Below, one piece after another: positions 1,844 to 59,207 of a stretch of DNA of 64,000 nt. How positions within the stretch are numbered: position 1 is the stretch's first letter; the number at the start of each line of letters is the position of its first letter. Under the pieces are notes generated by a model that was not told the origin of the DNA, did not search any database, and saw only the letters and a list, made by a program, of their open reading frames with translations. Both the position numbers and the translations under genes were made by a program. The stretch is taken from NCBI GenBank assembly GCA_017505525.1, contig JAFVPB010000015.1:26-64025 (forward strand), written 5' to 3'. The DNA is from Clostridia bacterium (lineage in GTDB: Bacteria; Bacillota; Clostridia; UMGS1883).

Positions 1844-1864
1844 TCCATTAAATTTCGTGTTTTG

Positions 1865-2298
1865 TGCCTTTTTGCGCTCTGGCCGCCTTAAAGGGCGAAG
1901 GAAAAATAGTTCAGAACGGACAAACTGAGTCAAGCGAAGCTTGAGTTACCCGAAGCGACGTCAAAACAAAGCAGACGATGCTCCGTTTTGCTTAAAAGCA
2001 AAACTTACGCACTATGCTTTATTTTTCCTTCTCCCCAAAAAGCATTGTCTGCTTTTCGGGGTCCCCGAAAGTCGCAAGACTTTAAGGGGAAAAGGAGCAA
2101 ACGAGCGATAAGTTTAAGTTTTCCTAAAACTTAAACCTTAGCGAGCCTTGCGACGTGCGAGAGGCGAAGTTTGTTCGTAGCAAAAAGGATTAATAATATG
2201 AAAAAATCTAAAAAACGAGATTTTTCTACCATAATCTGAAAAACCTCATTCTTTCTGCTAATCACGTTTAATATTTTTCCTGCCTTTTTGCGCTCTGG
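1865..2298 (+). repeat. interspersed structured element, copy 1 (long-core variant)
   Basis: Bounded by 18-bp direct repeats TGCCTTTTTGCGCTCTGG (1865-1882 and 2281-2298). It contains the conserved 5' module '...AGTTCAGAACGGACAAACTGAG' and the 3' module 'GAGGCGAAGTTTGTTCGTAGCAAAAAGG-ATTAATAATA-GAAAAAATC..GATTTTTC-..-GCCTTTTTGCG'. Both modules are shared with the copies at 18567 and 31251. Confidence 0.6.
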
Positions 2299-2321
2299 AC
2301 TATTTTAACAAGCCCTTTTTT

Positions 2322-2346
2322 ACAACACAAAAAGGCATTCCTTACA
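2322..2346 (-). terminator. rho-independent terminator after rpmB
   Basis: A GGCATTCcttacaGAATGCC hairpin is followed by a T-run on the minus strand. Confidence 0.55.
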
Positions 2347-2378
2347 GAATGCCTTGCTTGAACCTATTTACAAAGAAA

Positions 2379-2567
2379 TCAGATAGCTCTTACAACTTTT
2401 CCGCTTCTAAGACAACGGGAACAAACATGAACTGTTTTTGGTGTGCCATTAACGATAGCCTTAACTGTTTTTACGTTGGGCTTCCAAGCACGGTTTGATC
2501 TTCTGTGTGAGTGGCTTACCTTAATACCAAAAGTAACACCCTTACCGCATACATCACATTTTGCCAT
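2379..2567 (-). CDS. rpmB: 50S ribosomal protein L28
   Basis: 62 aa, 'MAKCDVCGKG...HRRSNR.WKPN', the typical L28 sequence. Confidence 0.9.
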   Translation of the reverse strand: MAKCDVCGKGVTFGIKVSHSHRRSNRAWKPNVKTVKAIVNGTPKTVHVCSRCLRSGKVVRAI

Positions 2568-7775: not shown

Positions 7776-7784
7776 TCGTTGAAC

Positions 7785-7833
7785 GGGAATGTTTAAAAAG
7801 TTCAGACCGCAAAAAGTTTAAATCGCAAAAAGT
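7785..7833 (-). repeat. terminal fragment of the interspersed element (end module only)
   Basis: 'GGGAATGTTTAAAaagTTCAGAcCGCAAAAAG' closely matches the reverse-complemented element end 'GGGGATGTTTAAAttcTCCAGAaCGCAAAAAGGC'. It is followed by a second partial repeat, 'TTTAAATCGCAAAAAGTTCAGG'. Confidence 0.45.
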
Positions 7834-8565
7834 TCAGGCTCTCGCTTTATTTACTATCTTGTAAATAATCCAGTAGAGTGAGTTTTGTTCCATCTTTGCT
7901 TTTGTAAGAGCCTCAAGGGCTCTTTTTTCGTCTGTTATTTCAATTTTTATTTTGGGATTATTCATTAAATCCCATAAAATATCGTTTGGCGTTTCTATAG
8001 TTTTTTGGGGTTCTTCCCTTAAAAGCGGCAGCAAATTCTTCTCGAAAGCCTTTCTGGTGTTCCCGCCAAAGAAATTCACACCGGGGCAGGTTTTAAGAGA
8101 AGTTTTTTTATTATAGTCTCCTATAAATCCCGCCGAAGAATACCATGCGTGATAGACAACTGCGCTTTCAGGTACAAGCTTGCACTTTTTTAAAAGCGCT
8201 TTCATCACACTCACTATTGTATTTTTTTGTTCTGTGGGCATAGTTTCAGCATCAAAATTTCCAAGGCATTCAATACATATTGCCCCCGTGTTGGCATTTG
8301 TTATGCCTGCAGGCTTAATATTTAAATCACGCCCCGAAACAACTGTTCCATCGGGAAATATCGTTAAATTCTGCGCAATGTCGCTGAATCCTCTTGATTT
8401 CACATGGTAATTTTTCATTCCCTGCTGAAGTGCCATATGATTATTTACTGAAAATGATTTTATATTTGGACTGTATGTGTGATGAAGCTGAATTTTTGTA
8501 ATTTTCCTTTTAAAATTAAAAGCATCTATGTATTTTACATATTCTTCTGCCGTATATTTTTTCAT
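7834..8565 (-). CDS. phage endolysin, N-acetylmuramoyl-L-alanine amidase (amidase_2/PGRP-type)
   Basis: Amidase_2 features ('IQLHHTYSP', 'ICIECLGNF', 'VYHAWY') sitting next to a holin gene. Confidence 0.7.
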   Translation of the reverse strand: MKKYTAEEYVKYIDAFNFKRKITKIQLHHTYSPNIKSFSVNNHMALQQGMKNYHVKSRGFSDIAQNLTIFPDGTVVSGRDLNIKPAGITNANTGAICIECLGNFDAETMPTEQKNTIVSVMKALLKKCKLVPESAVVYHAWYSSAGFIGDYNKKTSLKTCPGVNFFGGNTRKAFEKNLLPLLREEPQKTIETPNDILWDLMNNPKIKIEITDEKRALEALTKAKMEQNSLYWIIYKIVNKARA

Positions 8566-8575
8566 AATAAAACCT

Positions 8576-9007
8576 CTATTCTTTTTTATCCTTTATTGCT
8601 TCTAAGGCTTTTTTTATAAATTCGGGATATGGAACTCCCATTTTAGTTGTGTTTTCAACGATACTTAACCCCTCGTTCCCTATGAAAAACAGCATAGCTG
8701 TGTTGCGTATATACTCCGACCCCATAACGCTATCAATGCATACGCACAATGCTATCAGGCATAAAACACAAATCTTCTTTACTATTCCCTTAAATCCTGC
8801 ACGTGAGCTTGCCTTTCCGCTTTTGGTTTTATTGCTTTTGTGAAAAACAAATGCAAGCAAAAATCCCGTTATGTAGTCAATTACCATACAAACCAAAAGT
8901 GTTGCTAAAAGCTTGTCCCATCCGCCGAGCAAGGCTGATACAAATCCGCCAATTCCCGAAACTATACCAAGCAAAATATTTTTAACGTAATACGCTTTCA
9001 CATTCAT
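8576..9007 (-). CDS. phage holin (holin_4_1-like)
   Basis: 143 aa with three TM helices, the 'GGWDKLLATLLVCMVIDYITG' region, and a charged C-terminus. It lies immediately upstream of the endolysin. Confidence 0.7.
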   Translation of the reverse strand: MNVKAYYVKNILLGIVSGIGGFVSALLGGWDKLLATLLVCMVIDYITGFLLAFVFHKSNKTKSGKASSRAGFKGIVKKICVLCLIALCVCIDSVMGSEYIRNTAMLFFIGNEGLSIVENTTKMGVPYPEFIKKALEAIKDKKE

Positions 9008-9296
9008 CCTCCTTTACTGCATAAATTTCTCTTGGGTTTTCCTTAAAGTCATAGTTTGCAAGCGTTGTTACAAGCCCTGTTGTATAGCCTTTTATAATTT
9101 TGCCTGTTTCGTTGCCGTATTCATCGGTTGCAATTTCATCACGGCTCTTCTCGTGCAGTTTATAACCATCGCAAGGAAGTATTGTGTAGTTGACTACATC
9201 TCCGTTCTCATTTACACGTTCCTGCATAATGGTGTTTTCTATTTTTGTTTCAATATCTCTGTACATAAAATACCTCCTACGCCAAATTCCAACCAA
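8982..9296 (-). CDS. hypothetical phage protein
   Basis: The ORF sits inside the phage late operon. No recognisable motifs were found. Confidence 0.35.
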   Translation of the reverse strand: MVGIWRRRYFMYRDIETKIENTIMQERVNENGDVVNYTILPCDGYKLHEKSRDEIATDEYGNETGKIIKGYTTGLVTTLANYDFKENPREIYAVKEDECESVLR

Positions 9297-10098
9297 TATC
9301 GGTTATATAGGCATCGTATGTTTTGTTGTTAAATTCAGGTATCGCCCCTAAGTTAGCCATTGCTGTTTTGCAAGTATCTTTAAGAGTGAGAGTATATACA
9401 CCTGCGTTTTCTGTTCCTGAATAATCCTTCAAATGTAAAATTATATCCTTAACACTTTCCACACTTAACGGACTATAAGAAATTGATAAATTTCTTCCTA
9501 TCTCACCCTCAAACCTTACATTTTTCAATGAACTGCAAACACTGAATGCAGATTCAAAATGAGTATCAGCGTTTGAACGAATTAGCTCAATAGTGTGTAA
9601 TTTACCACACCTTGCCCAAGTATAATAGTAGTAGCCTGCGGGCATCCCTACATCTTCAAATTCTTCTAACGCAGTGCAATAATGACATATTTGTCGGTTT
9701 CCCAGTTGATGAGTGGTTTGACTAATATTAAATTTATCTGTATTTATATTTGAGAAATCAAAATATTTTTTCTCAACCTTTTTAATATAGCTGTTGTAAT
9801 GAAACATATAGGCATACGATGGAATGTTGTCAGCAGTAGCACAACCACGAGGCACTATCTTACGATTAGGTCTTATACATTCATCTGTAAAACCAATAAA
9901 AGCATAGGCATACCAATTTCTTTCGCCATTCTGTGTAAATTTATCCCAAAAGGCATTCTGCTCGTCTGTTCTGCCTTTATCATAAACCTCATTTATTCCA
10001 TTTGCCATACCATCAAGGCTCAGTGCCTCTGTGCCGCCTGTTTTAGAGCGGATATTATCCGCAATAACCGTCATTTTTTCATTAAATTTCATTACCAT
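9277..10098 (-). CDS. phage protein with BspA-type leucine-rich repeat
   Basis: One BspA-like LRR, 'FESAFSVCSSLKNVRFEGEI'. It lies between the tail-fibre and lysis genes. Confidence 0.4.
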   Translation of the reverse strand: MVMKFNEKMTVIADNIRSKTGGTEALSLDGMANGINEVYDKGRTDEQNAFWDKFTQNGERNWYAYAFIGFTDECIRPNRKIVPRGCATADNIPSYAYMFHYNSYIKKVEKKYFDFSNINTDKFNISQTTHQLGNRQICHYCTALEEFEDVGMPAGYYYYTWARCGKLHTIELIRSNADTHFESAFSVCSSLKNVRFEGEIGRNLSISYSPLSVESVKDIILHLKDYSGTENAGVYTLTLKDTCKTAMANLGAIPEFNNKTYDAYITDIGWNLA

Positions 10099-11120
10099 TC
10101 ACCTCCTGAAATAGCATTTTCAACGTAGCACTTTACTTCCTCTATCTCCTGAGTTGTAAAATAGTCCACCCCTTTTATAGGGGCATCTCCCTTAACTTTT
10201 CCCACATTGAATGATGAAAGATTTTCTCCGAGGTTTAAAATCAACTCGCCGTTTTCATTAAGACTCACCCCGGGAGGATTCTCTTCGTCGGGATAGTGCA
10301 CCCATAAATCGCCGTTTTCATCCACCGAGAAAGAATAAAATCCGTTTACGGGCACAATTGCACCACCTAAACCCTGCTCGCCTCTTTCTCCCTTATCTCC
10401 TTTTTCGCCCTTATCACCTTTTTCACCCTGGATGCCTTGCTCTCCCTGTATGCCCTGAATGCCCTGTTCGCCTTTTTCACCTTTATCGCCTTTTGAAGCA
10501 ATCATAAGCCAGTAGTTTTCATTCTCTGGCGAAACTCCTTTGCATTCTTTTATACAAACAAAGCATCTTCCTTTGTAAACTGCTTTATTGTTTTTTTCGT
10601 AGAAATACTCTTCATCGTATTCATCCCAAACGTTCATTGAATCAGAAAGCTTTTTTATTTCTTCATTTGCATCTGCAAGCTTTTTTGAAACCTTTGGCAT
10701 AATTTCCTCTATTTCCTGCTGAAGCTGAAGCGTTTGGCTTGGAGTTGGCTCGCAAATATTTAAGCCCCCTTCGCTTTCACTTACAAAAAGAGTATCACGC
10801 ACACTTTTCAGAATTTTTGTTGGAGCGGCACTGTAGTATCCCTCCACAGTAAAAGAACACCATCCCGTTTCCTTTGTTGCTTCGGGAGGAATTTTTGTTT
10901 CATATATAAGGTTGTTCTCTTGGGCATTTGGTTTAAGAACAACACTTACCGCATTTTCGCCCTTAGCATCGCGCCATATAATTCTTTTGCCAAAGCCAAG
11001 CCAGCTCTCATCAAAAGTTATTTCTACATTTTGTGAATTCCCACTGCCTGCCGCACCTGCATTCTTGTTATTTTTTTCAACAAACTGCCCATTTATTTTT
11101 ATTTTTATGGTGTTATTCAT
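10092..11120 (-). CDS. collagen-like repeat tail fibre protein
   Basis: About 17 consecutive G-X-Y triplets ('GDKGEKGEQGIQGIQGEQGIQGEKGDKGEKGDKGERGEQG') flanked by non-collagenous domains. A 'caggagg' RBS precedes the start. Confidence 0.7.
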   Translation of the reverse strand: MNNTIKIKINGQFVEKNNKNAGAAGSGNSQNVEITFDESWLGFGKRIIWRDAKGENAVSVVLKPNAQENNLIYETKIPPEATKETGWCSFTVEGYYSAAPTKILKSVRDTLFVSESEGGLNICEPTPSQTLQLQQEIEEIMPKVSKKLADANEEIKKLSDSMNVWDEYDEEYFYEKNNKAVYKGRCFVCIKECKGVSPENENYWLMIASKGDKGEKGEQGIQGIQGEQGIQGEKGDKGEKGDKGERGEQGLGGAIVPVNGFYSFSVDENGDLWVHYPDEENPPGVSLNENGELILNLGENLSSFNVGKVKGDAPIKGVDYFTTQEIEEVKCYVENAISGGEW

Positions 11121-11132
11121 CTTGTCCTCCTG

Positions 11133-11166
11133 TAAAATTTTAAAAAAATCCCCGTGATAAATTTAT
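11133..11166 (-). terminator. rho-independent terminator of nfnAB
   Basis: A CCCCGTGATAAatttaTCACGGGG hairpin followed by T-rich sequence on the minus strand. Confidence 0.6.
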
Positions 11167-11188
11167 CACGGGGATTTGATAATTTATT

Positions 11189-12586
11189 TTAATTATTCTG
11201 TTTTTTGATATAGTCGTCAATCGCTTTTGCTGCTTTCTTTCCTGCGCCCATTGCAAGAATAACTGTTGCTGCGCCTGTTACGGCATCTCCGCCTGCATAA
11301 ACGCCCTCGCGGCTGGTCTGCCCAAATTCTCCGTCGGTTACAATACAACCGCGCTTGTTCGTTTCGAGACCGGGAGTGGTTTTTCTTATTAAAGGATTGG
11401 GACTTGTGCCTATCGACATTATCACCGTATCAGCTTCTAGCACGAATTCGCTTCCCTCTATCTCGCAGGCTTTTCGTCTTCCACTTTCATCAACTTCGCC
11501 AAGCTCCATAGAAATGCAACGCATAGCACATACATCGCCGTTATCATCACCAAGAATTTCCACAGGGTTTGTAAGCGTTTTAAAGATAATTCCCTCTTCA
11601 ATCGCGTGCTCAACTTCCTCTTTTCTTGCGGGGAGCTCGTCCATAGAACGGCGGTATACAATATAAACCTCGTCCGCGCCGAGACGAAGAGCACTTCTTG
11701 CGGCATCCATCGCCACGTTTCCACCGCCTACCACACAAACCTTTTTGCCCTTTTTAATAGGTGTTTTCGAATTGGGCAGATACGCCTTCATAAGGTTAAT
11801 TCTTGTTAAATATTCATTGGCACTGTAAACACCTTTAAGTGCTTCACCCTTAATATTCATAAACCTTGGAAGTCCTGCACCGCTTGCAATGTAAACCGCC
11901 TCAAATCCGTTTTCAAAAAGCTCGTCTACGGTTATGATTTTTCCAATAACCATATTGGTCATAATATTTACGCCCATTTTCTTAAGCTTTTCTATTTCGC
12001 TGTTTACTATATCCTTTGGAAGACGGAATTCAGGAATTCCGTAAACCAGCACGCCACCTGCAGTATGAAGTGCTTCAAAAACTGTTACCTCGTATCCGAG
12101 ACGTGCAAGATCACCTGCCGCGCTTAATCCCGATGGGCCGCTTCCTATTATTGCAACCTTGTGTGAATTCGATTCTATCTTTTCTGTTTCATTTCCACTA
12201 TGCTCTCTGTGATAATCGGCTACAAATCTTTCAAGTCTACCTATAGCTACACTTTCACCTTTAATTCCTCTCACACAAACACTTTCACACTGAGTTTCCT
12301 GAGGGCAAACTCTTCCGCAAACTGCGGGAAGCGCACTCGAACGGGAAATGATTTCATAAGCGCCCTCCATATCTTCGTTTGCAACCCTTTCAATAAACTC
12401 AGGAATATCAATTCTTACAGGGCACATTGAAGTACATGGCTTATTCTTACAATTCAGGCAACGCCTTGCCTCTTCTACTGCCATCTCGAAGCTGTAGCCC
12501 TCACTGACTTCTTTAAAATTGCTTTTTCTGACACTTGCATCCTGCACAGGCATAGGGCATCTTTTTGGATTCATATTTCTTTCCAT
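11189..12586 (-). CDS. nfnB: NADH-dependent reduced ferredoxin:NADP+ oxidoreductase subunit B (glutamate synthase small-chain-like, SudA/GltD family)
   Basis: Two [4Fe-4S] cysteine clusters near the N-terminus ('CLNCKNKPC', 'CPVRIDIPEF', 'CGRVCPQETQCES') and FAD/NAD Rossmann motifs ('VAIIGSGPSGL', 'VCVVGGGNVAMD'). The start is trimmed to the ATG at 12586, which follows a GGGGG RBS and leaves a 1-nt gap to the nfnA stop. Confidence 0.85.
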   Translation of the reverse strand: MERNMNPKRCPMPVQDASVRKSNFKEVSEGYSFEMAVEEARRCLNCKNKPCTSMCPVRIDIPEFIERVANEDMEGAYEIISRSSALPAVCGRVCPQETQCESVCVRGIKGESVAIGRLERFVADYHREHSGNETEKIESNSHKVAIIGSGPSGLSAAGDLARLGYEVTVFEALHTAGGVLVYGIPEFRLPKDIVNSEIEKLKKMGVNIMTNMVIGKIITVDELFENGFEAVYIASGAGLPRFMNIKGEALKGVYSANEYLTRINLMKAYLPNSKTPIKKGKKVCVVGGGNVAMDAARSALRLGADEVYIVYRRSMDELPARKEEVEHAIEEGIIFKTLTNPVEILGDDNGDVCAMRCISMELGEVDESGRRKACEIEGSEFVLEADTVIMSIGTSPNPLIRKTTPGLETNKRGCIVTDGEFGQTSREGVYAGGDAVTGAATVILAMGAGKKAAKAIDDYIKKQNN

Positions 12587-12587
12587 A

Positions 12588-13430
12588 TTACTGTGCCCCC
12601 TTTTTAAGAAGATTGCAGTTTTCTTCACGCTTCATATTTTCCGCTCTTTTATACATTGTGCCACGGCTGATAGCTTCATCGAAATCCACAAGATGTCCGT
12701 CGAAATCAGGTCCGTCAACGCAGGCAAACTTAGTTTCTCCACCAACCGTAAGGCGGCAGCCTCCGCACATTCCTGTCCCGTCAATCATTATTGGATTCAT
12801 CGATACAGTTGTTTTAATATTATATTTTTTTGTAACAGCACAAACAAACTTCATCATCATAAGAGGGCCTATTGCAAACACTTCATCATATTTATTACCC
12901 TCACAAATCAGCTTTTCAAGAGCCTCGGTAACAAGTCCTTTTTCTCCGTAGCTTCCATCGTCTGTCATAATTTTAAATGTTTGGCTTACGTTTTTAAATT
13001 CCTCTTCTAAAATTACAAGGTCTTTGTTTCTGAATCCCGCAACAGTGTGAACAGTACATCCGTTTTCATATAGTTTTTTTGCAACGGGGAAAGCTATCGC
13101 CGAGCCTACTCCACCGCCTACAACACAAACCTTTTTCAGATTGTCAAGCTTTGTGGGCGAGCCAAGAGGCCCCACAAAATCGCAGATGCTTTCTCCCTTC
13201 CCCAAAGAATTAAGCTCCATCGTTGCCTGCCCGATAACCTGAAAAATTATAGTTACGGTTCCGTTCACCTTATCACTGTCAGATATTGTAAGCGGCACAC
13301 GCTCTCCATCGGGCGTAGCACGAAATATTATAAACTGCCCCGGCTGTGCTTTTTTAGCTATAAGCGGTGCGCTTACCACTATTTTTGTAACACTGGGGTT
13401 AAGTGAAGTTTTTTCAATAATTTCAAACAT
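12588..13430 (-). CDS. nfnA: ferredoxin-NADP+ reductase subunit A (PyrK-like FAD/[2Fe-2S] subunit, SudB family)
   Basis: A PyrK-like fold with 'VCVVGGGVGSA' and a C-terminal 2Fe-2S motif 'CGGCRLTVGGETKFACVDGP'. It is tightly coupled to nfnB. Confidence 0.85.
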   Translation of the reverse strand: MFEIIEKTSLNPSVTKIVVSAPLIAKKAQPGQFIIFRATPDGERVPLTISDSDKVNGTVTIIFQVIGQATMELNSLGKGESICDFVGPLGSPTKLDNLKKVCVVGGGVGSAIAFPVAKKLYENGCTVHTVAGFRNKDLVILEEEFKNVSQTFKIMTDDGSYGEKGLVTEALEKLICEGNKYDEVFAIGPLMMMKFVCAVTKKYNIKTTVSMNPIMIDGTGMCGGCRLTVGGETKFACVDGPDFDGHLVDFDEAISRGTMYKRAENMKREENCNLLKKGAQ

Positions 13431-13532
13431 AAGTTTCTGTCCTTTCGAGTATAAACCTACTCTACATTATACAAAAAACCTCGCCTTAACGCAAGTGGTA
13501 TTTTTAATTTGAAAAGACAACTTTCTTCCTCT

Positions 13533-14717
13533 TTAGTCCTTAACACGTAAATTGGGTGAAAGATTTAAGATTTTGGCACTTTCAGAATCAAGATATCCAA
13601 GCGTTTTCCACTTATCAAGTGCTATTTTAATTTTATCGAGTTTTTCTTTATACTCACGGTCTTTTTGAGAATCTTCCTCGTCTTTAAGTATTTTCTTCAG
13701 TGCCAAATCATAATCACTAAGATATTCTGCCTTTTCGTTTTCAAATTTATCAAGCGAAAGATTATACTCTCTGTCTTCCACTTCCTTTTTGCGTTCTGTT
13801 TCACTTTTATATCGTTCGTTCTCAAGCTCTTTCTCGCTTTTGTATCTTTCATTTTCGAGCTCTTTTTCACTTACGTATCTTTCTTCTTCGATTTCTCTTT
13901 CCTTCCTGTATTTTTCGTCTTCCAGCGAATCAATAAACTTTTTATAATCAAATTCACGGTCTTTTTCAAAGCTCTCTACTCTGTCGAGATATTTTTCATA
14001 TTCGTTTTCTGAAAGAGTATTAAGTGCTTCAAGTTCTTTAAAGTCATTGCTTACAGAATCAAGATACATATCATAGTTCAAAGAGTAAAGCTCGGGAATA
14101 ATATCGGCAACCTTTGAATTATAGTAATCTGCCGCACTGAGTGCCGCACCAGCAGCATAGCTGCTTACGTTGCCGCCCGTGTTTACGGAAAGCTTACCCA
14201 AAATGTCCTCCATACTGCGCTCTCCCTCACGAAGATAGGCTTCTTTATAATATTTATAAATATCGTCCTCAAAGGGATTATACGAAAATTCTTTCCTCTT
14301 TAATATCTTATTTAAGAGGTTGTTTATATCTTTTGAGTAGCTGTTTTTATATTCTTCTCTTTTTCCGCTTGTTCTGAAATCGTCTGCACCCATTATATAT
14401 TTTACTGCCTCATCATACACATCGTCGTAAGCGTAATGTATAAGGCCTTCGGTACCGCTTGCTTTTTTCACTCGCTTTTTAAGAGTTTTTGAAACCGTAT
14501 CTCTTGATGCACCGCTGTTCATCTGCTTTTTCAGCACAACACTGTAGTCGGTATCATCAAGCCAGCCTGAGTACCTGTTTGTTTTTTCATAATCAAGGCC
14601 TTCACTGTCGATTTTTTCGTTACGTGTTTTTTCAAGCTTTGCCGCCGTAACATAGTCGCCTTTTTTTACCGCCTCATTAATTTGTTCTTGATAATCGGTA
14701 TCTTTATTATAGCTCAT
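13533..14717 (-). CDS. hypothetical phage structural protein, D/E/K/Y-rich with tandem repeats
   Basis: Low-complexity charged protein with repeated '...ERYKSEKELEN...' units. It sits in the phage late operon. Confidence 0.4.
   Translation of the reverse strand: MSYNKDTDYQEQINEAVKKGDYVTAAKLEKTRNEKIDSEGLDYEKTNRYSGWLDDTDYSVVLKKQMNSGASRDTVSKTLKKRVKKASGTEGLIHYAYDDVYDEAVKYIMGADDFRTSGKREEYKNSYSKDINNLLNKILKRKEFSYNPFEDDIYKYYKEAYLREGERSMEDILGKLSVNTGGNVSSYAAGAALSAADYYNSKVADIIPELYSLNYDMYLDSVSNDFKELEALNTLSENEYEKYLDRVESFEKDREFDYKKFIDSLEDEKYRKEREIEEERYVSEKELENERYKSEKELENERYKSETERKKEVEDREYNLSLDKFENEKAEYLSDYDLALKKILKDEEDSQKDREYKEKLDKIKIALDKWKTLGYLDSESAKILNLSPNLRVKD
13793..13893 (-). repeat. imperfect ~33-bp tandem repeat (x3) inside CDS 13533-14717
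   Basis: Three successive ~33-nt units encode the repeated ERYKSEKELEN-like peptide. Confidence 0.5.
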
Positions 14718-14892
14718 TTTCTCCCCCCTCGTAAATTCTGGTTTTACTTGTGTTTATTTCTATGATATTTGAACTGTCGAGATGCGTAAGTATATACTTC
14801 AGCTCTTCTTCGTTCGCTCTCAGGTAATTTTCTATTACCCTTATTTTTTCTTCGGTGCTTTTATCCTGTAAATCTGAAAGTGAATGAAACAT
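14707..14892 (-). CDS. hypothetical small phage protein
   Basis: The likely start is the ATG (MFHSLSDLQ) after an 'agaggag' RBS. Confidence 0.3.
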   Translation of the reverse strand: MFHSLSDLQDKSTEEKIRVIENYLRANEEELKYILTHLDSSNIIEINTSKTRIYEGGENEL

Positions 14893-14905
14893 TTTTTCTC
14901 CTCTT

Positions 14906-16677: not shown

Positions 16678-16685
16678 TTTCTCCT

Positions 16686-17036
16686 TTAAATTCTGATTTC
16701 GCACTGTGGAGGAATATGTGTGCGGATATAGTTTTTTCTGAATTCCTCGTATGCACGCATAAACATCGCAGCACTAACGGCATAAGATGCCGTTTCTCCA
16801 CTGTGAAAATCTCCCATTGCAATAATATAAAGCTCGTAAATGTTGTCGTACGGAGCTTTTGCTAAAAGCTCCGTTTCTCCGCTATCCGGAAATTCATATT
16901 TTTTGAACTGAGGTAAATGCATAGTTTCAAGTGCAATTTTTCCGTCGAGTTCGCTTATCCATTCTGACTTTTGTTCGTCGGTAAATGTATCGGGATGCAG
17001 CCTCATTGCCCTTTCAATAGCCTTATTAATTGTCAA
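16686..17036 (-). CDS. hypothetical phage protein
   Basis: The ORF overlaps its neighbours in the late operon. Confidence 0.35.
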   Translation of the reverse strand: MTINKAIERAMRLHPDTFTDEQKSEWISELDGKIALETMHLPQFKKYEFPDSGETELLAKAPYDNIYELYIIAMGDFHSGETASYAVSAAMFMRAYEEFRKNYIRTHIPPQCEIRI

Positions 17037-18135: not shown

Positions 18136-18147
18136 AAAATCAACTCC

Positions 18148-18411
18148 TTAAATCTTTCTGGCTTCAGCTTCGGCAAAAAATTCGCTTGATTTGTTATCCA
18201 TAAGTCTTGCTGTTTTAATATCCTGTCGCATTGAATTTTCTAAAACATCGGCAAACTTCTTTTTGATTTTAACCTTCTTGCCTCTCTGAATAACACAGCT
18301 TTCCCCGTTTACTGCCACAAATACATTATCCTTATAATCCTTGTTATCCCTGAAAAGCTCTATTTCGACCAAAGCTTCCTTTTCTTTTGATTTCATATTT
18401 TTTGCTGCCAT
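18148..18411 (-). CDS. hypothetical phage protein (head-associated?)
   Basis: 87 aa, immediately downstream of the major capsid gene, with an 'aggaaagga' RBS. Confidence 0.35.
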   Translation of the reverse strand: MAAKNMKSKEKEALVEIELFRDNKDYKDNVFVAVNGESCVIQRGKKVKIKKKFADVLENSMRQDIKTARLMDNKSSEFFAEAEARKI

Positions 18412-18566
18412 TTTTTACATCCTTTCCTGTTTTTACTTTCCCTTAGTTTTTTTGCAGGGGCGGACACCCTCACATTTCCGCAAAATACAGATCCCACGGG
18501 CGGATGTAGGCATCCGCCCCTACAATTAATAATTAAATCAGTTTTTACTGAAAAATATTTTTAAAG

Positions 18567-18830
18567 TTCCAAGTGATTTAAACATCCTCTTACCAGAAGA
18601 GGATAGGAGAAATTGCTTGAAACGGACAAACTGAGCCAAGCTATGCTTGGGTTACCCGAAGGCGTACACAGGTACGCCGAGAGGCGAAGTTTGTTCGTAG
18701 CAAAAGGCTTAATAATAAAGAAAAATCGAATTCAGTGAGATTTTTCAACCAAAACACAATGTTTCATTACTTTGCGCTTATTTCTTTATATCTATCTTTG
18801 CCTTTTGCGTTCCAAGTAATTTAAACATCC
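18567..18830 (+). repeat. interspersed structured element, copy 2
   Basis: Flanked by 21-bp direct repeats 'TTCCAAGTRATTTAAACATCC' (18567-18587 and 18810-18830). It carries the 5' module 'ATAGGAGAAATTGCTTGAAACGGACAAACTGAG' and the 3' module 'GAGGCGAAGTTTGTTCGTAGCAAAAGGCTTAATAATA...GAAAAATCG..GATTTTTC...GCCTTTTGCG'. Confidence 0.6.
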
Positions 18831-18832
18831 CC

Positions 18833-20179
18833 TTACCCAAATGTGCTTGCTGTTTCTACCCTTACCATGTATGGTTCAACAAGTCTAACCGTTGCTTTTG
18901 TAGCCTTCCAGCCTGCTGTTGCACGCTGATTGAGCGGGTCAGCAGTTCCTGCTGAGCCAAGCTGCTTGATTATATGTGTGAGGCCACCGCCCACAATTTC
19001 TGTTGTGCCATAAGCATTTTCACCGAAAATAAGTGTTGAATAAACATCTCTGCCCTTGTATCCTGCTTCACCGGGGTAAATAACCATTCCTGCTGAAATT
19101 GTATTTTTGGGTGCCTTTGCAAGATAAAGAGCCTTTTTATCTGCATCGATACCTGAAATTTCAAGCACTTCGGCATCACTTTCAGAATAGATAATCTGAA
19201 TTTTTCCGCCTGCAAGTCGCTCTGCATCTTCCAGAGTAATTTCTTCCTTAATTTTTAATTCAAATGTTGATGATGTTCCGCAGCCCTCTGCAAGTGTTGG
19301 GTTGCTATCGAGAACACTGTAGGAAGAAGCTGTAAGTTCACGCGACTGCGCACAAAGATCTTCTGCATGGAAAACCTTCGCTTCACTTGATTCCACAAAG
19401 CGAACATTTTCAATCTTACCGATTTCGCCCTGATAAATACCCTCGGGATCGGAATATGTTTTAACGTTAATCCACTTGGGATCACTCATAAGGTCGTATG
19501 CTGTATCAGGGTGAATAATACCCACATAGCTGCCATCGATAGTTTCGGCACTCATCTTCTTAAGATAGCGCACTGCCTTTCTGACAGCGTCGACCGTAAG
19601 ATAGTGATTTCCGCTTTCTTCTCCTCCGTTTAAAAGTCCTCTTTCATCAACCTGACCTTCGCTGTACTGCACATTTGTACCGCCTGAAAGCACCTCACGG
19701 GTGATTGTATCAAGAGTTCTTCCCGCCTGACCACCAAGAAGCTTTGTAGCCTGTACAAGATTGTTGTCAACTGCAGTAAGCATAAGCATATCTGAAAGCT
19801 CAATAAATCCACCATACTGCTTAACATCTGCAGAAACAACGCCCATATCAAGCTTCTGTCCTGATGGGGTAACGCCCTCTGCAAGAGGTGTTGTCATTTT
19901 GGGAAGCGGGTCGTACTTTCTGAATTCTATTGTCTTACCGTTTCCCTTCGGAATAGGGCACTTCTGTCCAAACTGGTCATGGACAAGTTTAGGCTCTGCC
20001 ATGTCAATAAGATAATCCGAGTAATATGTTCTCATTTCCGCACTTAATCCACCGTTTTCACCGTAAGGAGTGAATGCGCCTGTTGTATTATTAGCAATAC
20101 CTGCCGTTGTGTTTACAGTGTCGCCTGCAGCAAAAAGCTGCAAGTCAATAATTCTTTCTGTCTGTTTCAAATTTTTCAT
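18833..20179 (-). CDS. phage major capsid protein
   Basis: 448 aa in the canonical position downstream of portal and scaffold. The N-terminus 'IIDLQLFAAGD' resembles the L27/Prp cleavage motif. Confidence 0.7.
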   Translation of the reverse strand: MKNLKQTERIIDLQLFAAGDTVNTTAGIANNTTGAFTPYGENGGLSAEMRTYYSDYLIDMAEPKLVHDQFGQKCPIPKGNGKTIEFRKYDPLPKMTTPLAEGVTPSGQKLDMGVVSADVKQYGGFIELSDMLMLTAVDNNLVQATKLLGGQAGRTLDTITREVLSGGTNVQYSEGQVDERGLLNGGEESGNHYLTVDAVRKAVRYLKKMSAETIDGSYVGIIHPDTAYDLMSDPKWINVKTYSDPEGIYQGEIGKIENVRFVESSEAKVFHAEDLCAQSRELTASSYSVLDSNPTLAEGCGTSSTFELKIKEEITLEDAERLAGGKIQIIYSESDAEVLEISGIDADKKALYLAKAPKNTISAGMVIYPGEAGYKGRDVYSTLIFGENAYGTTEIVGGGLTHIIKQLGSAGTADPLNQRATAGWKATKATVRLVEPYMVRVETASTFG

Positions 20180-20197
20180 CCTTTCCTTTTACATTTA

Positions 20198-23512: not shown

Positions 23513-23523
23513 TTTCCCCTCCG

Positions 23524-30914: not shown

Positions 30915-31262
30915 ATGTCATTTAAACGTACCGACAGGATATCCGAAGAAATAAAAAAAGAATTATCAAGTATTATCCGCGATCTTAAAGATCCTCGCAT
31001 CCCTATGATGACGAGTGTTGTAAGCGTTAATGTAACAAACGATCTGCGCTATGCAAAAGCCTATATCAGTGTTATGGGCAGCGACGACGAGAAGAAAGAT
31101 GCTATAAAAGCTCTTTCTTCTGCCGCAGGCTTTATAAGGCGCGAAATCGGCGGAAGAGTTAAGTTAAGATGTGTGCCTGAATTCACCTTTGTGCAGGATA
31201 CTTCTATAGAATATGGCGCGCATATTAACGACCTCTTAAACAAAATTCAAGGGGATGTTTAA
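30915..31262 (+). CDS. rbfA: ribosome-binding factor A
   Basis: 115 aa, 'RISEEIKKELSSIIRDLKDPR', the typical RbfA KH fold. Confidence 0.9.
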   Translation: MSFKRTDRISEEIKKELSSIIRDLKDPRIPMMTSVVSVNVTNDLRYAKAYISVMGSDDEKKDAIKALSSAAGFIRREIGGRVKLRCVPEFTFVQDTSIEYGAHINDLLNKIQGDV

Positions 31263-31493
31263 ATTCTCCAGAACGCAAAAAGGCGAGAATAATCAAAATT
31301 CAGAATGCTTATAAGCCTAAACTGTTTATAATTCGGTTGAAAAATCCAGTTTTTCGATTTTTCTTCGTTTTTAATCCTTTTTGCTACGAACAAACTTCGC
31401 CTTCGAGGTATACCAATACATCTTTGGCTCAGTTTGTCCGTTCTGAACAATTTCTCCTATCCCCTTTTTTTATGGGGATGTTTAAATTCTCCA
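31251..31493 (-). repeat. interspersed structured element, copy 3 (minus orientation)
   Basis: 20-bp direct repeats 'GGGGATGTTTAAATTCTCCA' at 31251-31270 and 31474-31493. The first overlaps the last codons and stop of rbfA. The 5' and 3' modules are the same as in copies 1 and 2 but reverse-complemented. An internal 63-codon ORF (31259-31450) starts with TTG after AGGAGA. Confidence 0.6.
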
Positions 31494-31517
31494 ATCAGCT
31501 GTTAAAGGACTGATTAT

Positions 31518-40447: not shown

Positions 40448-41842
40448 TTTATATCATTAACCCTTGCGGTTTTACTTGTGCTTTTAAGTTTTCAAAGCGC
40501 ATTTGCCGCGCCAAGAATTCCCGTGTATAAAGTTGGGAATGTTTTATACTTTTTCGATAAATCATCGGGAACAATCACTGGCTTTGCGGGAGAGCCGAAA
40601 GACCTTATTATCCCTACAGAACTTAACGGACATAAGGTAGTTTCAATCGGAACGGGAGCATTTTCATCCTGTCCAACGCTTTCAACGCTTTCAATTCCCT
40701 ATGGCGTATGCTCGATTTCTGCAAATGCGTTTTCGGGATGCACCAATCTTATGTCTGTTGAGATAGGGGCCACTGTTTCGTTTATAGGCGATAGCGCTTT
40801 CAGGGATTGTACATCTCTTTCACGCGTAACATTTTTAGGCTTGCTTGATAACATTGAATCAAATGCTTTTTACAACACTCCGTGGATTACAAATTCCACC
40901 GATGAATTTGTAATGCTTGGCGGAACAACACTTATTAAATACAACGGAACAAGTGAAAGAGTTGTTGTGCCCGCGGGCGTAAAAAAAATTGAAGCTAATG
41001 CCTTCAGCTGGAACCCCTCTATTAAAGAGGTTGTTCTCCCTTATGGCTTGCAGAAAATAGGCGACAATGCCTTTGTGCACTGCTACAGTCTTGAAAAAAT
41101 AGAAATTCCGTCTACCGTTGCATATATCGGCACAGGTGCCTTTGACGATACAATATGGCTCAACAATCAGGAGGGCAACTTTATTTGTGTTAACGGTATA
41201 CTTATTGCCTACCGCGGAAATGATAAAAGCGTAATAATTCCTGATGGCATAACGGGTATTGGAAGCGGTGCCTTTATGTCGAATGAAAGTCTTATGTGTG
41301 TTACCGTTCCTGAAAGTGTTCTATATATTGATACCCTTGCATTTTCAGGATGTTCAAACCTTATCTGTGCTAATATTTCCCATTCTGTAGAATGGATTGA
41401 CGAATATGCTTTTTCGGGATGCACCAAGCTTTCTCTCTGTGTAACAGAGGGCACCTATGGCGAAAATTACGCCCAGAGTATGGAAATAATCATAAGCCGT
41501 CCTGTCCCTGCATATTACAACTGGAATCAGGTTATTTTCGACGGAGTCTATCCTCTTCTCCTGAATGGAACAGCTTATATTCCTCTTCGTGCCGTTTTAG
41601 AGGATTTGGGCTACACCGTTTTGTGGGATAATATATCAAAAAGCACTAAATGTGTTAAAGGAGATTATTATTTTATAATAGAGCAGAGCGGTAGAGTGCT
41701 TATCAATTCACAAATTGCATGGTTCACAGCGGAACCAATCAATATAAAAGGAAAAACGCTCTATCCGTCAAACATTGTGAGTCTTCTTACGGGAAACACT
41801 ATAGAATGGAACGAGCAGTCAAAGAGTATTATGATATATTAA
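40448..41842 (+). CDS. secreted BspA-type leucine-rich-repeat protein with C-terminal copper-amine-oxidase N-terminal-like (stalk) domain
   Basis: Signal peptide 'LLVLLSFQSAFA', 8-9 BspA-like LRR units ('IGDSAFRDCTSL', 'IEANAFSW...') and a C-terminal 'YIPLRAVLEDLGYTVLWDNISKS'. The start is the ATG at 40448 after a GGAG RBS. Confidence 0.65.
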   Translation, partial: FISLTLAVLLVLLSFQSAFAAPRIPVYKVGNVLYFFDKSSGTITGFAGEPKDLIIPTELNGHKVVSIGTGAFSSCPTLSTLSIPYGVCSISANAFSGCTNLMSVEIGATVSFIGDSAFRDCTSLSRVTFLGLLDNIESNAFYNTPWITNSTDEFVMLGGTTLIKYNGTSERVVVPAGVKKIEANAFSWNPSIKEVVLPYGLQKIGDNAFVHCYSLEKIEIPSTVAYIGTGAFDDTIWLNNQEGNFICVNGILIAYRGNDKSVIIPDGITGIGSGAFMSNESLMCVTVPESVLYIDTLAFSGCSNLICANISHSVEWIDEYAFSGCTKLSLCVTEGTYGENYAQSMEIIISRPVPAYYNWNQVIFDGVYPLLLNGTAYIPLRAVLEDLGYTVLWDNISKSTKCVKGDYYFIIEQSGRVLINSQIAWFTAEPINIKGKTLYPSNIVSLLTGNTIEWNEQSKSIMIY

Positions 41843-41941
41843 TGTTTAAATTCTTCATGCCGCAAAAAGGCAGCAGATATAATACTATAAAATTAAAAAG
41901 GGGATGTTTAAGGCATCCCCTTTTTTGTTAAGGAGGCAGTT

Positions 41942-53164: not shown

Positions 53165-53944
53165 TTGAAACGTATTTTTTCCATTGTATTATCCTTATTA
53201 TTCTTGTGTTCCTGTTCTTTTAATGCTACTTTAAAAAGTAGTTCTGAAAGCCTTTCTCTAAGCGAGAAAAAACAGGGCTGGGGTTTTAAAAAAACTGAAA
53301 GCGGCCCTGAATTTACAAGCTCACAAAAAGAAATAATGAAAAAATACAACTGCATATATCACGGAAATCCCGAAGAAAAAGTGCTTTACCTCACATTTGA
53401 CGAGGGGTATGAAAACGGCTATACTCCCCTTATTTTAGATACTCTTAAAGAGAAAGGTGTGCCTGCGGCTTTTTTTGTTACAGGGCCATATGTTAAAAAC
53501 GAACCCGAACTTATTTTAAGAATGGCAAAAGAGGGGCATATTATAGGCAACCACACAGTTAACCATCCCTCTGTCCCCAATATTTCCACCGAAGAGTTGG
53601 TACGCGAACTTTCAGAACTCGACCGCCTTATTTTCGGAGTTTGTAAAAAAACCACAAAATATTTCCGCCCCCCAATGGGCGAATACAGTGAACGTACTCT
53701 GCACGCGGCAACCTCGCTTGGATATATAAACACGTTCTGGTCGTTTGCCTATGTCGACTGGAATAACAACGTTTCAAAAGAAGAAGCCAAAAAAAATATT
53801 TTAAAAGCTTTCCATAACGGAACAGTTATTCTTCTTCACGCAGTTTCACGCGGAAATGCCGAGGCACTCGGCGAAGCTATTGATATTGCAAAAAAAGAGG
53901 GCTATGTCTTCAAAAGTCTCGATGAATATCCCGGGCAAAGATAA
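53165..53944 (+). CDS. polysaccharide deacetylase (NodB-homology, PdaA-like) lipoprotein
   Basis: TTG start after a GAGGTG RBS. Lipobox 'FLCSCS' and NodB motifs 'LTFDEGY' and 'HTVNHP'. Confidence 0.75.
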   Translation: MKRIFSIVLSLLFLCSCSFNATLKSSSESLSLSEKKQGWGFKKTESGPEFTSSQKEIMKKYNCIYHGNPEEKVLYLTFDEGYENGYTPLILDTLKEKGVPAAFFVTGPYVKNEPELILRMAKEGHIIGNHTVNHPSVPNISTEELVRELSELDRLIFGVCKKTTKYFRPPMGEYSERTLHAATSLGYINTFWSFAYVDWNNNVSKEEAKKNILKAFHNGTVILLHAVSRGNAEALGEAIDIAKKEGYVFKSLDEYPGQR

Positions 53945-54115
53945 AATGCACAGACCGCATAAAGTTTCTTCTGTTTTAAAAATTCTTATCGTAGGGCAGG
54001 AGCTTGTTCCTGCCGTAGAAAAATAAATTTTTTTGTGATTTCATCCCTCCGTATAAAACTGCAAAAAAAGCACATCATAAAAAAGCAACTTTATTAATTC
54101 AAAGGAATAAACGTT

Positions 54116-59150: not shown

Positions 59151-59207
59151 AAATTCCCATATACAAAGAGGGTGTTTAAAACTTTGTTTTTAAACACCCT
59201 CTTTTCA

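What the first reader, a model, noticed from the sequence alone, without database searches (positions are those of the whole stretch)
1865..2298. Unannotated interspersed structured element family (3 full copies plus 1 end fragment in 64 kb)
Three intergenic loci (1865-2298 on the plus strand, 18567-18830 on the plus strand, 31251-31493 on the minus strand) share the same modular architecture.
- 5' module: a short hairpin whose sequence differs between copies but whose position is conserved (CGCC..GGCG, CCTCTT..AAGAGG or CCCC..GGGG), followed by ATAGGAGAAATTGYTYGAAACGGACAAACTGAG.
- Core: variable in length (27, 48 or 234 nt).
- 3' module: GAGGCGAAGTTTGTTCGTAGCAAAAAGG, then MTTAATAATA, then a hairpin GAAAAATC..GATTTTTC, then AACC, a variable stretch, and finally GCCTTTTTGCGYTCYGG.

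Several internal pairings are supported by compensatory changes between copies.
- GCAAAAAGG/CCTTTTTGC has five A:T pairs in copies 1 and 3. Copy 2 carries GCAAAAGGC/GCCTTTTGC with four.
- The core-proximal hairpin is TCAAGC..GCTTGA in copy 1 but CCAAGC..GCTTGG in copy 2.
- GAACGGACAAACT near the 5' end can pair with AGTTTGTTC at the start of the 3' module.

Each copy is bounded by 18-21 bp direct repeats. The family has features of a MITE or integrative miniature element and, equally, of a structured ncRNA gene. I could not match it to RNase P, tmRNA, SRP, 6S or any riboswitch consensus.
Basis: seen in the sequence. Interest (0 to 1): 0.75.

Follow-up and report, generated by a model that had tools for sequence, protein, structure and literature searches.

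The report
Multicopy structured repeat beside terminators
The three loci belong to a large, uncatalogued family of ~245-base non-coding elements in uncultured gut and rumen Clostridia that fold into a conserved three-armed structure, insert just after transcription terminators, and look like a new kind of structured mobile element with no gene of its own.

Summary
The window holds three full copies, at least four 3'-end fragments and one hairpin-only relic.

Each ~245-nt unit folds on one strand into a three-way junction:
- P1: the 5' segment x' pairs with the 3'-terminal ~24 nt, x.
- P2: a conserved arm.
- P3: an arm with a variable interior.

On 64 copies, 91% of cells pair against about 45% in slid controls, and 31 pairs show two-sided changes. 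Some copies, including copy 1, carry a ~200-nt accessory domain.

The flanking "direct repeats" are not target duplications. They are an extra copy of the element's own 3' end. Close relatives show a clean empty site for copy 1, and solo-x or internally deleted alleles at the sites of copies 2 and 3.

Copies sit just 3' of terminator-like hairpins and abut the stop codon of a convergent gene. No protein gene is linked to them. Rfam 15, the plasmid, phage and viral collections and the literature gave no match.

Best reading: a non-autonomous mobile element recognised or copied as a folded single strand, perhaps RNA. That last step is inferred, not shown.

The parts
1856..2318 (+). Whole block present at the copy-1 site and absent from the empty allele of a close relative (463 nt): 8 nt, then a 3'-end fragment, a spacer, a full unit and TTT.
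   Evidence: Window compared with L132, whose PyrR is 90% identical. L132 reads ..ATTCCAGTATTAATTT^ACACAACACAAAAAGGCATTCC, with no trace of the element.
1860..1888 (+). Left partial copy (x_left) of copy 1: the P3 3' strand plus the start of x (TTTTGTGCCTTTTTGCGCTCTGG..), followed by CCGCC, which pairs with the start of x'.
   Evidence: Direct repeat 1860-1882 / 2276-2298 at 91%; sequence.
1890..2315 (+). Copy 1, a full unit of the long form. x' 1890-1915; P2 1916-1926 / 2168-2178; accessory domain about 1957-2155; P3 2180-2189 / 2282-2291; x 2293-2315.
   Evidence: for the anchors. The MFE fold of 1883-2318 gives the three-way junction at -135.9 kcal/mol, z = -6.9. The accessory domain is conserved with compensatory changes in L016, L093, L082 and L032.
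18566..18594 (+). Left partial copy (x_left) of copy 2: GTTCCAAGTGATTTAAACATCCTCTTACC.
   Evidence: 29-nt direct repeat with 18809-18837 at 93%. Relative L133 has a single x at this site.
18597..18834 (+). Copy 2, a full unit. x' 18597-18621; P2 18622-18632 / 18688-18698; P2a 18636-18650; P2b 18662-18677; P3 18700-18708 / 18800-18808; x 18809-18832.
   Evidence: Fold z = -5.0. nhmmer E = 2.7e-54.
31249..31468 (-). Copy 3, a full unit of the short form, lacking P2a. x' about 31468-31442; P2 31441-31431 / 31396-31386; P3 31384-31376 / 31284-31275; x 31273-31251. The stop codon and last three codons of rbfA (GDV*) are read from the complement of x.
   Evidence: Fold z = -5.8. nhmmer E = 7.5e-46. 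RBFA domain hit.
31469..31493 (-). Left partial copy (x_left) of copy 3: TGGAGAATTTAAACATCCCC plus ATAAA.
   Evidence: 25-nt direct repeat at 92%. Relative L125 carries exactly one copy of this sequence, which equals the window minus 223 nt.
7784..7838 (-). Solo 3'-end fragment (..CTTTTTGCGGTCTGAACTTTTTAAACATTCCC).
   Evidence: nhmmer profile positions 196-250, E = 4e-6.
41841..41920 (-). Mini-hairpin GGGGATGCCTTAAACATCCCC followed by T5 (41920-41900). About 30 nt further on lies the solo 3'-end fragment GCCTTTTTGCGGCATGAAGAATTTAAACATT (41871-41841).
   Evidence: weak nhmmer hit.
53933..54040 (-). 3' fragment of the second subfamily (..CTTTATGCGGTCTGTGCATTTTATCTTTGCCC). The stop codon of the convergent ORF 53036-53944 lies inside it.
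   Evidence: nhmmer profile positions 138-249, E = 5e-5; sequence.
59169..59200 (.). Hairpin-only relic (HP0 type): AGGGTGTTTAAAA-CTTTG-TTTTTAAACACCCT plus CTTTT, between convergent genes. Its arms match the window-type x.

Best explanation
These are copies of a non-autonomous, structured mobile element family resident in uncultured Oscillospirales-like Clostridia.

Shown:
- A unit of ~245 nt folds on one strand into a three-way junction, closed by pairing of its 5' segment (x') with its last ~24 nt (x). A ~430-nt form carries an optional accessory domain.
- Copies are gained de novo. They land in the T-rich stretch just 3' of a terminator-like hairpin, with at most 3 nt duplicated.
- They arrive as more-than-unit-length pieces. 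A partial previous unit, or a hairpin built from x, precedes the full unit. Full-full tandems also exist.
- They persist vertically.
- Close relatives at the same sites carry a solo x or a P1-only hairpin where the window has a full copy.

Inferred:
- Those solo-x and P1-only alleles are decay products of full copies. Recombination between the two x copies would leave a solo x, and internal deletion would leave a P1-only hairpin.
- The fold is conserved because the element is recognised and copied as a folded single strand whose 3' end (x plus a T/U tract) is fixed and whose 5' end is variable.
- I favour an RNA intermediate that ends at the P1 + U-tract terminator and is copied back into DNA by a reverse transcriptase supplied in trans. 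That is SINE-like, with the terminator-side lifestyle of group IIC introns.
- The partner enzyme, transcription of the element and the RNA step are not shown.
For: Family and structure:
- More than 111 loci in about 45 MAGs, many at contig ends.
- On 64 copies, 91.3% of cells pair against 39-51% when the partners are slid. 31 pairs have two-sided changes and 218 cells covary; 0 of 500 shuffles reach these values.
- P1 pairs in every copy where both ends were extracted, with copy-specific compensation.
- G.U 240 versus A.C 86 on the forward strand.
- The accessory domain has its own covariation and a GCAA loop.

Mobility:
- A clean empty site for copy 1 in L132.
- Solo-x alleles in L125 and L133, and an internally deleted allele in L135.
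- Near-identical copies at different loci of one genome.

Directionality:
- Among partial copies not cut by a locus end, 3' fragments with scattered 5' break points outnumber the two pieces that keep only the 5' part.
- Tandem arrays in L108 and L015.
- The right end is precise and followed by T-rich sequence: 62 of 76 copies have at least 4 T in the next 8 nt.

Position:
- A hairpin lies upstream. The 58 nt upstream fold at a mean of -18.4 kcal/mol, against -9.4 for random windows.
- A convergent gene's stop codon lies within 0-15 nt of the 3' end in 36 of 54 copies.
- Copies 2 and 3 lie inside operons, antisense to them, and without the bidirectional hairpin.

No linked protein family.
Against: - No transcript data are available, and there is no convincing promoter. 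The internal-promoter idea scored only 13 of 103 copies against 6.3 +/- 2.5 in shuffles, and the -10-like box sits too close to the fragment starts.
- A terminator hairpin sits directly upstream of most copies, so read-through would be needed.
- No reverse transcriptase was seen, although only about 830 kb of sequence around copies could be inspected.
- Solo 3' ends may arise by deletion between the two x copies rather than by 5' truncation during copying, if the solo alleles are derived from full copies. That weakens the retro-style argument.
- The upstream hairpin loop occurs in both orientations, which a simple RNA-copy model does not predict.
- GCGAAGC loops are also exceptionally stable in DNA, so a single-stranded DNA form is not excluded.
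- Within a genome the P3 interior is only 46% identical while the core is 85%. This also fits host-level selection on old resident copies.
Confidence: 0.4

Rival explanations
1. A DNA-level element of the REPIN/RAYT or IS200/IS605-PATE kind. A hairpin-binding single-strand DNA transposase encoded elsewhere recognises the P1 stem, and the similar upstream hairpin, on one DNA strand. It cuts at the foot of the stem and inserts 3' of like hairpins. P2 and P3 only help the strand fold.
For: - The constraint is strand-specific.
- The upstream hairpin's arms match each subfamily's own x, as two sites bound by one protein would.
- Insertion occurs 3' of hairpins on either strand of the palindrome: L077 has a fragment on the other side, and the hairpin loops occur in both orientations.
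- Target duplication is at most 3 nt.
- Tandem insertion after another copy's x.
- GCGAAGC loops are very stable as DNA (established knowledge).
Against: - No HUH, TnpA or TnpB gene lies near any of about 120 copies.
- The right end has no local hairpin of its own.
- The most conserved part is the internal P2 arm, not the ends.
- An optional accessory domain with a GNRA-type loop looks like RNA architecture.
- Both orientations occur within 64 kb.
- The insertion is longer than one unit.
Confidence: 0.25
2. Primarily a host-used structured RNA or cis-acting module, either a protein-binding RNA or an ornate terminator/insulator at gene ends. Its many copies are kept by selection, and spread is rare and secondary.
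For: - Orthologous copies are retained across species (L001/L016, L034/L065). In L034/L065, paired columns differ 15% and unpaired columns 32%.
- The core is 85% identical and the P3 interior 46% within genomes.
- Copy 2 carries a unique compensated variant: CCAAGT in x and x_left, CTTGAA in x'.
- P1 is followed by a T tract, and the upstream hairpin plus T tract looks like a bidirectional terminator.
- Orientation avoids terminating operons.
- Fragments now supply stop codons for two ORFs (rbfA and 53036-53944), and apparently the ribosome-binding site for nrnA.
Against: - Copies decay freely in close relatives, to a solo x or an internal deletion.
- Sites are empty in near relatives.
- Dozens of dispersed copies next to unrelated genes.
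- Assemblies break at copies.
- No promoter was found.
Confidence: 0.2
3. A guide-RNA gene, omega-RNA- or tracrRNA-like, for a TnpB/IscB/Cas12-type nuclease encoded elsewhere. The x'/x duplex plays the part of the anti-repeat:repeat, and the flank after x serves as the guide.
For: - Its size, strong fold and precise 3' end next to variable flank.
- Solo 34-36-nt 3' pieces resemble lone repeats.
Against: - No TnpB, IscB or Cas gene is adjacent to any copy.
- No Rfam match to HEARO or IS605-orfB motifs, even at E up to 10.
- The flank is usually the stop-codon region of a convergent gene.
- No array structure.
Confidence: 0.05
4. Leftovers of a local duplication, or chance similarity.
For: None beyond the small number of copies visible in one window.
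Against: More than 111 loci in about 45 genomes; 0 hits expected by chance; the flanking genes are unrelated.
Confidence: 0.01

Closest known systems
Group IIC introns (bacterial class C group II introns) and their ORF-less or 5'-truncated derivatives
   Same: - Multicopy structured elements that insert just downstream of intrinsic terminator hairpins, in a fixed orientation.
- They leave many 5'-truncated copies and do little harm to host genes (established knowledge of the family).
- A segment near the element's 5' end pairs with sequence immediately upstream of the insertion point.
   Different: - Only ~245 nt.
- No domain V/VI, no GUGYG start, and no Rfam group II hit.
- The ends pair with each other.
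- Insertions are longer than one unit.
- No intron-encoded protein was seen.
REP / BIME / REPIN elements mobilised by RAYT (HUH) transposases
   Same: - Extragenic, and placed at gene ends between convergent genes.
- Hairpin-forming, hundreds of copies, and strand-specific.
- The P1-only and upstream hairpins resemble REP-type palindromes.
   Different: - In REPINs the spacer between the inverted REPs is the least conserved part. Here the ~200-nt interior (P2) is the most conserved and forms a three-way junction with covariation.
- No RAYT was found.
- The family spans many genera.
Bacterial MITE-like repeats that fold as RNA (Correia/NEMIS, BOX, RUP, ERIC)
   Same: - Small, non-coding and interspersed, with terminal inverted repeats.
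- They affect transcripts of neighbouring genes.
   Different: - No regular target-site duplication.
- Strict placement and orientation relative to hairpins.
- Internal helices with compensatory changes, and an optional accessory domain.
- Conservation across about 45 species-level genomes.
Eukaryotic SINEs and retrozymes (non-autonomous retroelements)
   Same: - A precise 3' end with a homopolymer-rich tail and a variable 5' end.
- Truncated 3' pieces, head-to-tail arrays, a structured RNA body and no coding capacity.
   Different: - No reverse transcriptase partner, internal promoter or ribozyme has been identified.
- No comparable non-intron retroposon is known to me in bacteria (own knowledge, not searched systematically).
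IS200/IS605 PATEs and TnpB omega-RNA scaffolds
   Same: - Strand-specific folded ends, no target duplication, and insertion 3' of a recognised sequence.
- A long structured non-coding part that ends exactly at the right boundary.
   Different: - No tnpA or tnpB nearby.
- No subterminal hairpin at the right end.
- No match to the Rfam IS605-orfB or HEARO models.

Membership tests
MITE (miniature inverted-repeat transposable element) | Terminal inverted repeats | tested here: met
   x' and x are imperfect inverted repeats of about 25 nt in every copy where both ends were extracted.
MITE (miniature inverted-repeat transposable element) | Fixed-length target-site duplication flanking the element | tested here: not met
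   Comparing the empty and filled alleles at copy 1 shows at most TTT duplicated. The 23-29-nt repeats are copies of the element's own 3' end.
MITE (miniature inverted-repeat transposable element) | A related autonomous IS with the same ends | tested here: inconclusive
   None among about 120 copies in 832 kb. Whole genomes could not be scanned.
REP / REPIN | Short (20-40 nt) palindromic units, singly or as inverted pairs, with a cognate RAYT gene flanked by them | tested here: inconclusive
   Hairpins of 28-36 nt exist upstream of copies and alone. No RAYT was seen in the sequence held. The 200-nt conserved interior is not a REPIN feature.
Group II intron (class C) | Catalytic domain V, domain VI and the six-domain fold | tested here: not met
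   No Rfam group II hit at gathering score or at E up to 10. The unit is 245 nt with three arms.
Group II intron (class C) | Insertion just after an intrinsic terminator hairpin, in one orientation | tested here: met
   About 88 of 93 copies have a hairpin or a 3' fragment directly upstream. The empty site of copy 1 lies about 20 nt after the pyrR terminator.
IS200/IS605 PATE or TnpB omega-RNA | Adjacent or cognate tnpA/tnpB, similar subterminal hairpins at both ends, and no target duplication | tested here: not met
   No such genes nearby. There is no local hairpin at the right end. Only the lack of a target duplication is met.
SINE-like retroposon | RNA intermediate and reverse transcriptase supplied in trans | not testable with these tools
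   Only indirect signs are available: a fixed 3' end with a T tract, 3' fragments with scattered break points, and tandem or longer-than-unit insertions.
Any Rfam 15 RNA family | A score at or above the family's gathering threshold | tested here: not met
   0 matches over the whole window. Only chance-level hits on three copies at E up to 10.
CRISPR array / tracrRNA | Regularly spaced repeats with spacers, and cas genes nearby | tested here: not met
   The repeats are 223-416 nt apart, with conserved sequence between them. No cas genes were found.
Riboswitch or leader | Position in the 5' UTR of the regulated gene | tested here: not met
   Copies follow gene ends. The right-hand gene is convergent in 41 of 54 copies.
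Intrinsic terminator | A GC-rich stem followed by a U tract | tested here: met
   Both the upstream hairpin and P1 are followed by T-rich sequence. Termination activity itself was not tested.

The most novel reading that the evidence does not exclude
A bacterial counterpart of SINEs. In this reading a structured RNA is terminated at its own long-range P1 terminator and copied back into DNA by a reverse transcriptase acting in trans, landing next to terminator hairpins. That would be the first non-intron, non-autonomous retroposon family described in bacteria. Alternatively, the three-way junction may be a new large functional RNA class, or even a ribozyme, that spreads as a selfish element.
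Probability: 0.3. Interest if true: 0.9.

Novelty: new variant of a known kind. Interest (0 to 1): 0.7.

Why it matters
- It would add a widespread, uncatalogued structured element to the small set of bacterial interspersed repeats. Its internal fold, not just its ends, is conserved across many genera.
- It gives a concrete system for asking how gene-less elements spread in gut and rumen Clostridia, with empty, filled, solo and collapsed alleles already in hand.
- It breaks MAG assemblies. It also reshapes gene ends, donating stop codons, an apparent ribosome-binding site and terminator-like hairpins.
- If the RNA-intermediate reading holds, it would show retroposition of a non-intron RNA in bacteria.

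Tried and rejected
- **Rfam.** Gathering scan of the whole window, and E up to 10 on three copies: nothing credible.
- **Sequence collections.** blastn of copy 2 against plasmids and phages found nothing. IMG/VR scans with three core patterns returned nothing or chance coding hits.
- **Literature.** A search for the core sequences found nothing, and two topic searches found nothing relevant.
- **Linked protein.** Clustering all ORFs in 111 loci gave only housekeeping families. Pfam scans of 30 window ORFs showed no transposase, reverse transcriptase or nuclease. A motif scan for RT and HUH proteins gave one candidate, which turned out to be a ferredoxin.
- **ORF-bearing autonomous form.** I looked for copies whose 5' and 3' modules lie far apart. 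The largest gap is 322 nt, and L103, L105 and the second L022 copy proved to be diverged or truncated copies.
- **Coding potential.** x' looks like a ribosome-binding site plus AUG. It was rejected by reading the sequence: the frame and stop are not conserved among copies (L104 versus L022, and a 1-nt frame shift in copy 2; sequences).
- **Variable P3 interior as captured spacer.** The only matches are to other copies, plus one unrelated hairpin repeat.
- **Internal outward promoter.** Weak, and misplaced relative to the fragment starts.
- **Short duplication after x.** The spacer after the left x shares only a weak prefix excess with the right flank (1.33 versus 0.90 +/- 0.15 nt).
- **GC skew for replication polarity.** Uninformative.
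- **Metagenome probes.** A probe for the copy-3 deletion junction found nothing in JGI contigs, although the allele was later found in a Logan assembly. A scan for the accessory domain found it only inside elements.
- **Same-species contigs.** All carry the three copies, so no strain-level polymorphism was seen.

Full report
**Observation**

The three loci are real and homologous. The 23-mer GGCGAAGTTTGTTCGTAGCAAAA occurs exactly three times in the window (2163+, 18683+, 31379-), against 0 expected by chance. The 5' module occurs three times as well. The match at 13783 to the 3' motif lies inside an ORF and is chance. The flanking direct repeats are 23, 29 and 25 nt long at 91-93% identity. 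Each copy folds far better than shuffled sequence, with z = -5.0, -5.8 and -6.9.

**Anatomy**

On the element's own strand a unit reads as follows.
- x': GGGGATAGGAGAAATTGYTYRRAAC.
- P2 5' strand: ACGGACAAACT.
- GAG, then an optional hairpin P2a.
- GTTACCCGAAG, then hairpin P2b (GCGTAC..GTACGC).
- CGAGAGGCGA.
- P2 3' strand: AGTTTGTTCGT.
- A, then the P3 5' strand: GCAAAAAGGC.
- A hairpin flanked by an A run and a T run, then a variable AT-rich stretch.
- P3 3' strand: GCCTTTTTGC.
- G, then x: GTTCTGGAGAATTTAAACATCCCC.

x' pairs with x, so P1, P2 and P3 meet in a three-way junction. Copy 1 runs to 2315, not 2298. Its 234-nt 'core' is a conserved accessory domain that replaces the P2b loop. That domain is also present in L016, L093, L082, L032 and L045, with its own compensatory changes and a GCAA-capped hairpin. 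It was found only inside elements.

**The family**

Nearly all hits are in uncultured Clostridia, Oscillospiraceae or Acutalibacteraceae MAGs from rumen, gut and faeces, about 45 genomes in all, and many lie at contig ends. One hit, in Prescottella, is chance.

On a 64-copy alignment with the P1/P2/P2a/P2b/P3/P3a structure:
- 91.3% of cells form standard pairs, against 39-51% when the partners are slid.
- 31 pairs show changes on both sides, and 218 cells covary.
- None of 500 shuffles reaches these values.

RNAalifold found P2, P2b and P3 independently. Diverged copies show compensated changes even in the nearly invariant P2 helix (sequences). P1 pairs in every copy where both ends were extracted. 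Subfamily-matched x'/x sets exist, along with copy-specific compensations such as GGAGAU/AUCUCC and GUGAU/AUCGC. G.U pairs outnumber A.C 240 to 86, so the constraint is on the strand as written.

Rfam 15 has no match at gathering score or at E up to 10. The plasmid, phage and IMG/VR collections and the literature searches gave nothing.

**Context rules**

Upstream of x' there is almost always one of two things.
- A near-perfect palindrome whose arms match that subfamily's own x, followed by a T tract.
- A partial 3' end of another unit.

A few copies follow an ordinary terminator instead. The 58 nt upstream fold at a mean of -18.4 kcal/mol, against -9.4 for random windows. The hairpin always lies on the 5' side, and its loop occurs in both orientations, even within one genome. 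The sequence after x is T-rich: 62 of 76 copies have at least 4 T in the next 8 nt.

In 41 of 54 copies the right-hand gene is convergent. Among those, 36 have the stop codon within 0-15 nt of the element's end.

In the window:
- Copy 1 lies between pyrR and rpmB/polA.
- Copy 2 lies antisense inside a phage-like structural operon.
- Copy 3 lies antisense between rbfA and nrnA, in the nusA-infB-rbfA-nrnA-truB operon.

The two operon-internal copies lack the bidirectional hairpin. No protein family recurs next to copies, and no transposase, reverse transcriptase or RNA-guided nuclease was seen.

**Gain, persistence and variant alleles**

Homologues of window proteins led to the same sites in close relatives.
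- **Copy-1 site.** L132 (PyrR 90% identical) has a clean empty site..ATTCCAGTATTAATTT^ACACAACAC.., about 20 nt after the pyrR terminator. The window carries 463 extra nt (1856-2318): a partial 3' end, a full unit and TTT. At most TTT is duplicated. The extra left piece therefore came in with the insertion and is not a pre-existing target here.
- **Copy-3 site.** L125 holds exactly one x, which equals the window minus 223 nt. Other relatives hold a different x-like solo or a small hairpin, and a more distant one has overlapping rbfA and nrnA with nothing between.
- **Copy-2 site.** L133 holds a solo x at the same junction with the capsid stop codon. L135 holds x' joined directly to the end of x, a P1-only hairpin.

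Two loss routes would explain these alleles, although the direction of change is inferred rather than shown. Recombination between the two x copies would leave a solo x. Internal deletion would leave a hairpin, a plausible source of the upstream hairpins.

Other observations:
- Orthologous occupied loci exist in different species: L001/L016 and L034/L065. In L034/L065, paired columns differ 15% and unpaired columns 32%.
- Within a genome the core is 85% identical but the P3 interior only 46%. A few pairs are near-identical throughout.
- Full-full tandems exist in L108 and L015.
- Among partial copies not cut by a locus end, 3' fragments with scattered break points outnumber the two pieces that keep only the 5' part.

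**Mechanism**

Shown:
- A strand-specific, selected fold.
- De novo insertion next to terminator hairpins with almost no target duplication.
- Longer-than-unit insertions and tandems.
- A precise 3' end with a T tract.
- Solo-x and collapsed alleles at occupied sites in close relatives.

Inferred: the element moves through a folded single strand whose 3' end is fixed and whose 5' end is not.

I favour an RNA that ends at the P1 + U-tract terminator and is copied by a reverse transcriptase acting in trans, with template switching giving the partial-plus-full and tandem forms. My confidence in this reading is about 0.4. The main weaknesses are:
- There is no transcript evidence.
- No promoter was found.
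- No reverse transcriptase was seen.
- Solo 3' ends can be explained by deletion rather than truncated copying.

The main rivals, which are not mutually exclusive, are:
- A hairpin-recognising single-strand DNA transposase system (REPIN/RAYT or IS200/IS605-like), at 0.25.
- Host-level use of the fold as an RNA or as a terminator/insulator, at 0.2.
- A guide-RNA role, which is unlikely at 0.05.

**Novelty and verdict**

The kind of thing, a bacterial interspersed structured repeat, is known. This family differs in four respects:
- A conserved three-way-junction interior.
- An optional accessory domain.
- Strict placement beside terminators.
- Breadth across about 45 genomes.

It is absent from Rfam 15 and from the papers searched. 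I rate it a new variant of a known kind, with interest 0.7. I give a 0.3 chance that it is something more novel, either a bacterial SINE-like retroposon or a new functional RNA class.

Noticed in passing
window 31251-31262 and 53936-53944: Host genes end inside element sequence. The last codons and stop of rbfA (..QGDV*) and the stop of ORF 53036-53944 are read from the complement of x. Relatives with other alleles have different RbfA C-termini (KPEN*, KPE*).
   Followed up: partly
window 31494-31517 (and L123, L125, L129, L130): The nrnA ribosome-binding region (TTAAAGGACTG) looks like the complement of a degenerate P3-3'-strand/x fragment. It is absent from the more distant relative L127, where rbfA and nrnA overlap. 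An old fragment may have been co-opted as the intergenic region.
   Followed up: partly
window 18441-18525, 34236-34262, 34400-34525: A second, unrelated family of GC-rich hairpin repeats (for example GGGCGGATGTAGGCATCCGCCCCTACA and GGCTCCCTTGTGTAAAGGGAGC..CCTCCCCTTACACAGGGGAGG). One member, 34406-34456, is also found inserted in the P3 interior of element copies L046, L072 and L083.
   Followed up: partly
window about 7800-25300: A phage-like block on the minus strand: amidase, collagen-repeat protein, N4-gp56-type major capsid, P22-like portal, large terminase, and a LexA/S24-type repressor at 25818-26429. Metabolic genes (11189-13430) lie inside it. The capsid has thousands of homologues at 70-93% identity, so it may be a conserved domesticated element rather than a recent prophage.
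   Followed up: no
window 1893-1908 versus 2020-2035: The accessory domain of copy 1 contains a stretch (TATTTTTCCTTCTCCC) that is 94% complementary to x'. It is conserved in all long-form copies. It could be an alternative partner for x' and so a possible conformational switch.
   Followed up: no
L022, L024, L035; L020, L033, L062, L095: The loop of the upstream palindrome occurs in both orientations (CTCG/CGAG; CGCAAG/CTTGCG) while the arms stay the same. This is a flip-flop reminiscent of hairpin telomeres, and it is unexplained by any of the models.
   Followed up: partly
L108 about 1900-2500 (-) and L015 4739-5150: Head-to-tail tandem arrays of complete units with only 0-3 nt between x and the next x'.
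   Followed up: partly
x' of most copies, for example window 18603-18616: x' reads like a ribosome-binding site followed by AUG or UUG (AGGAAAAAAUG, AGGAGAAAUUG), and x like an anti-Shine-Dalgarno (CCUCC/CCCC). No conserved ORF follows.
   Followed up: yes
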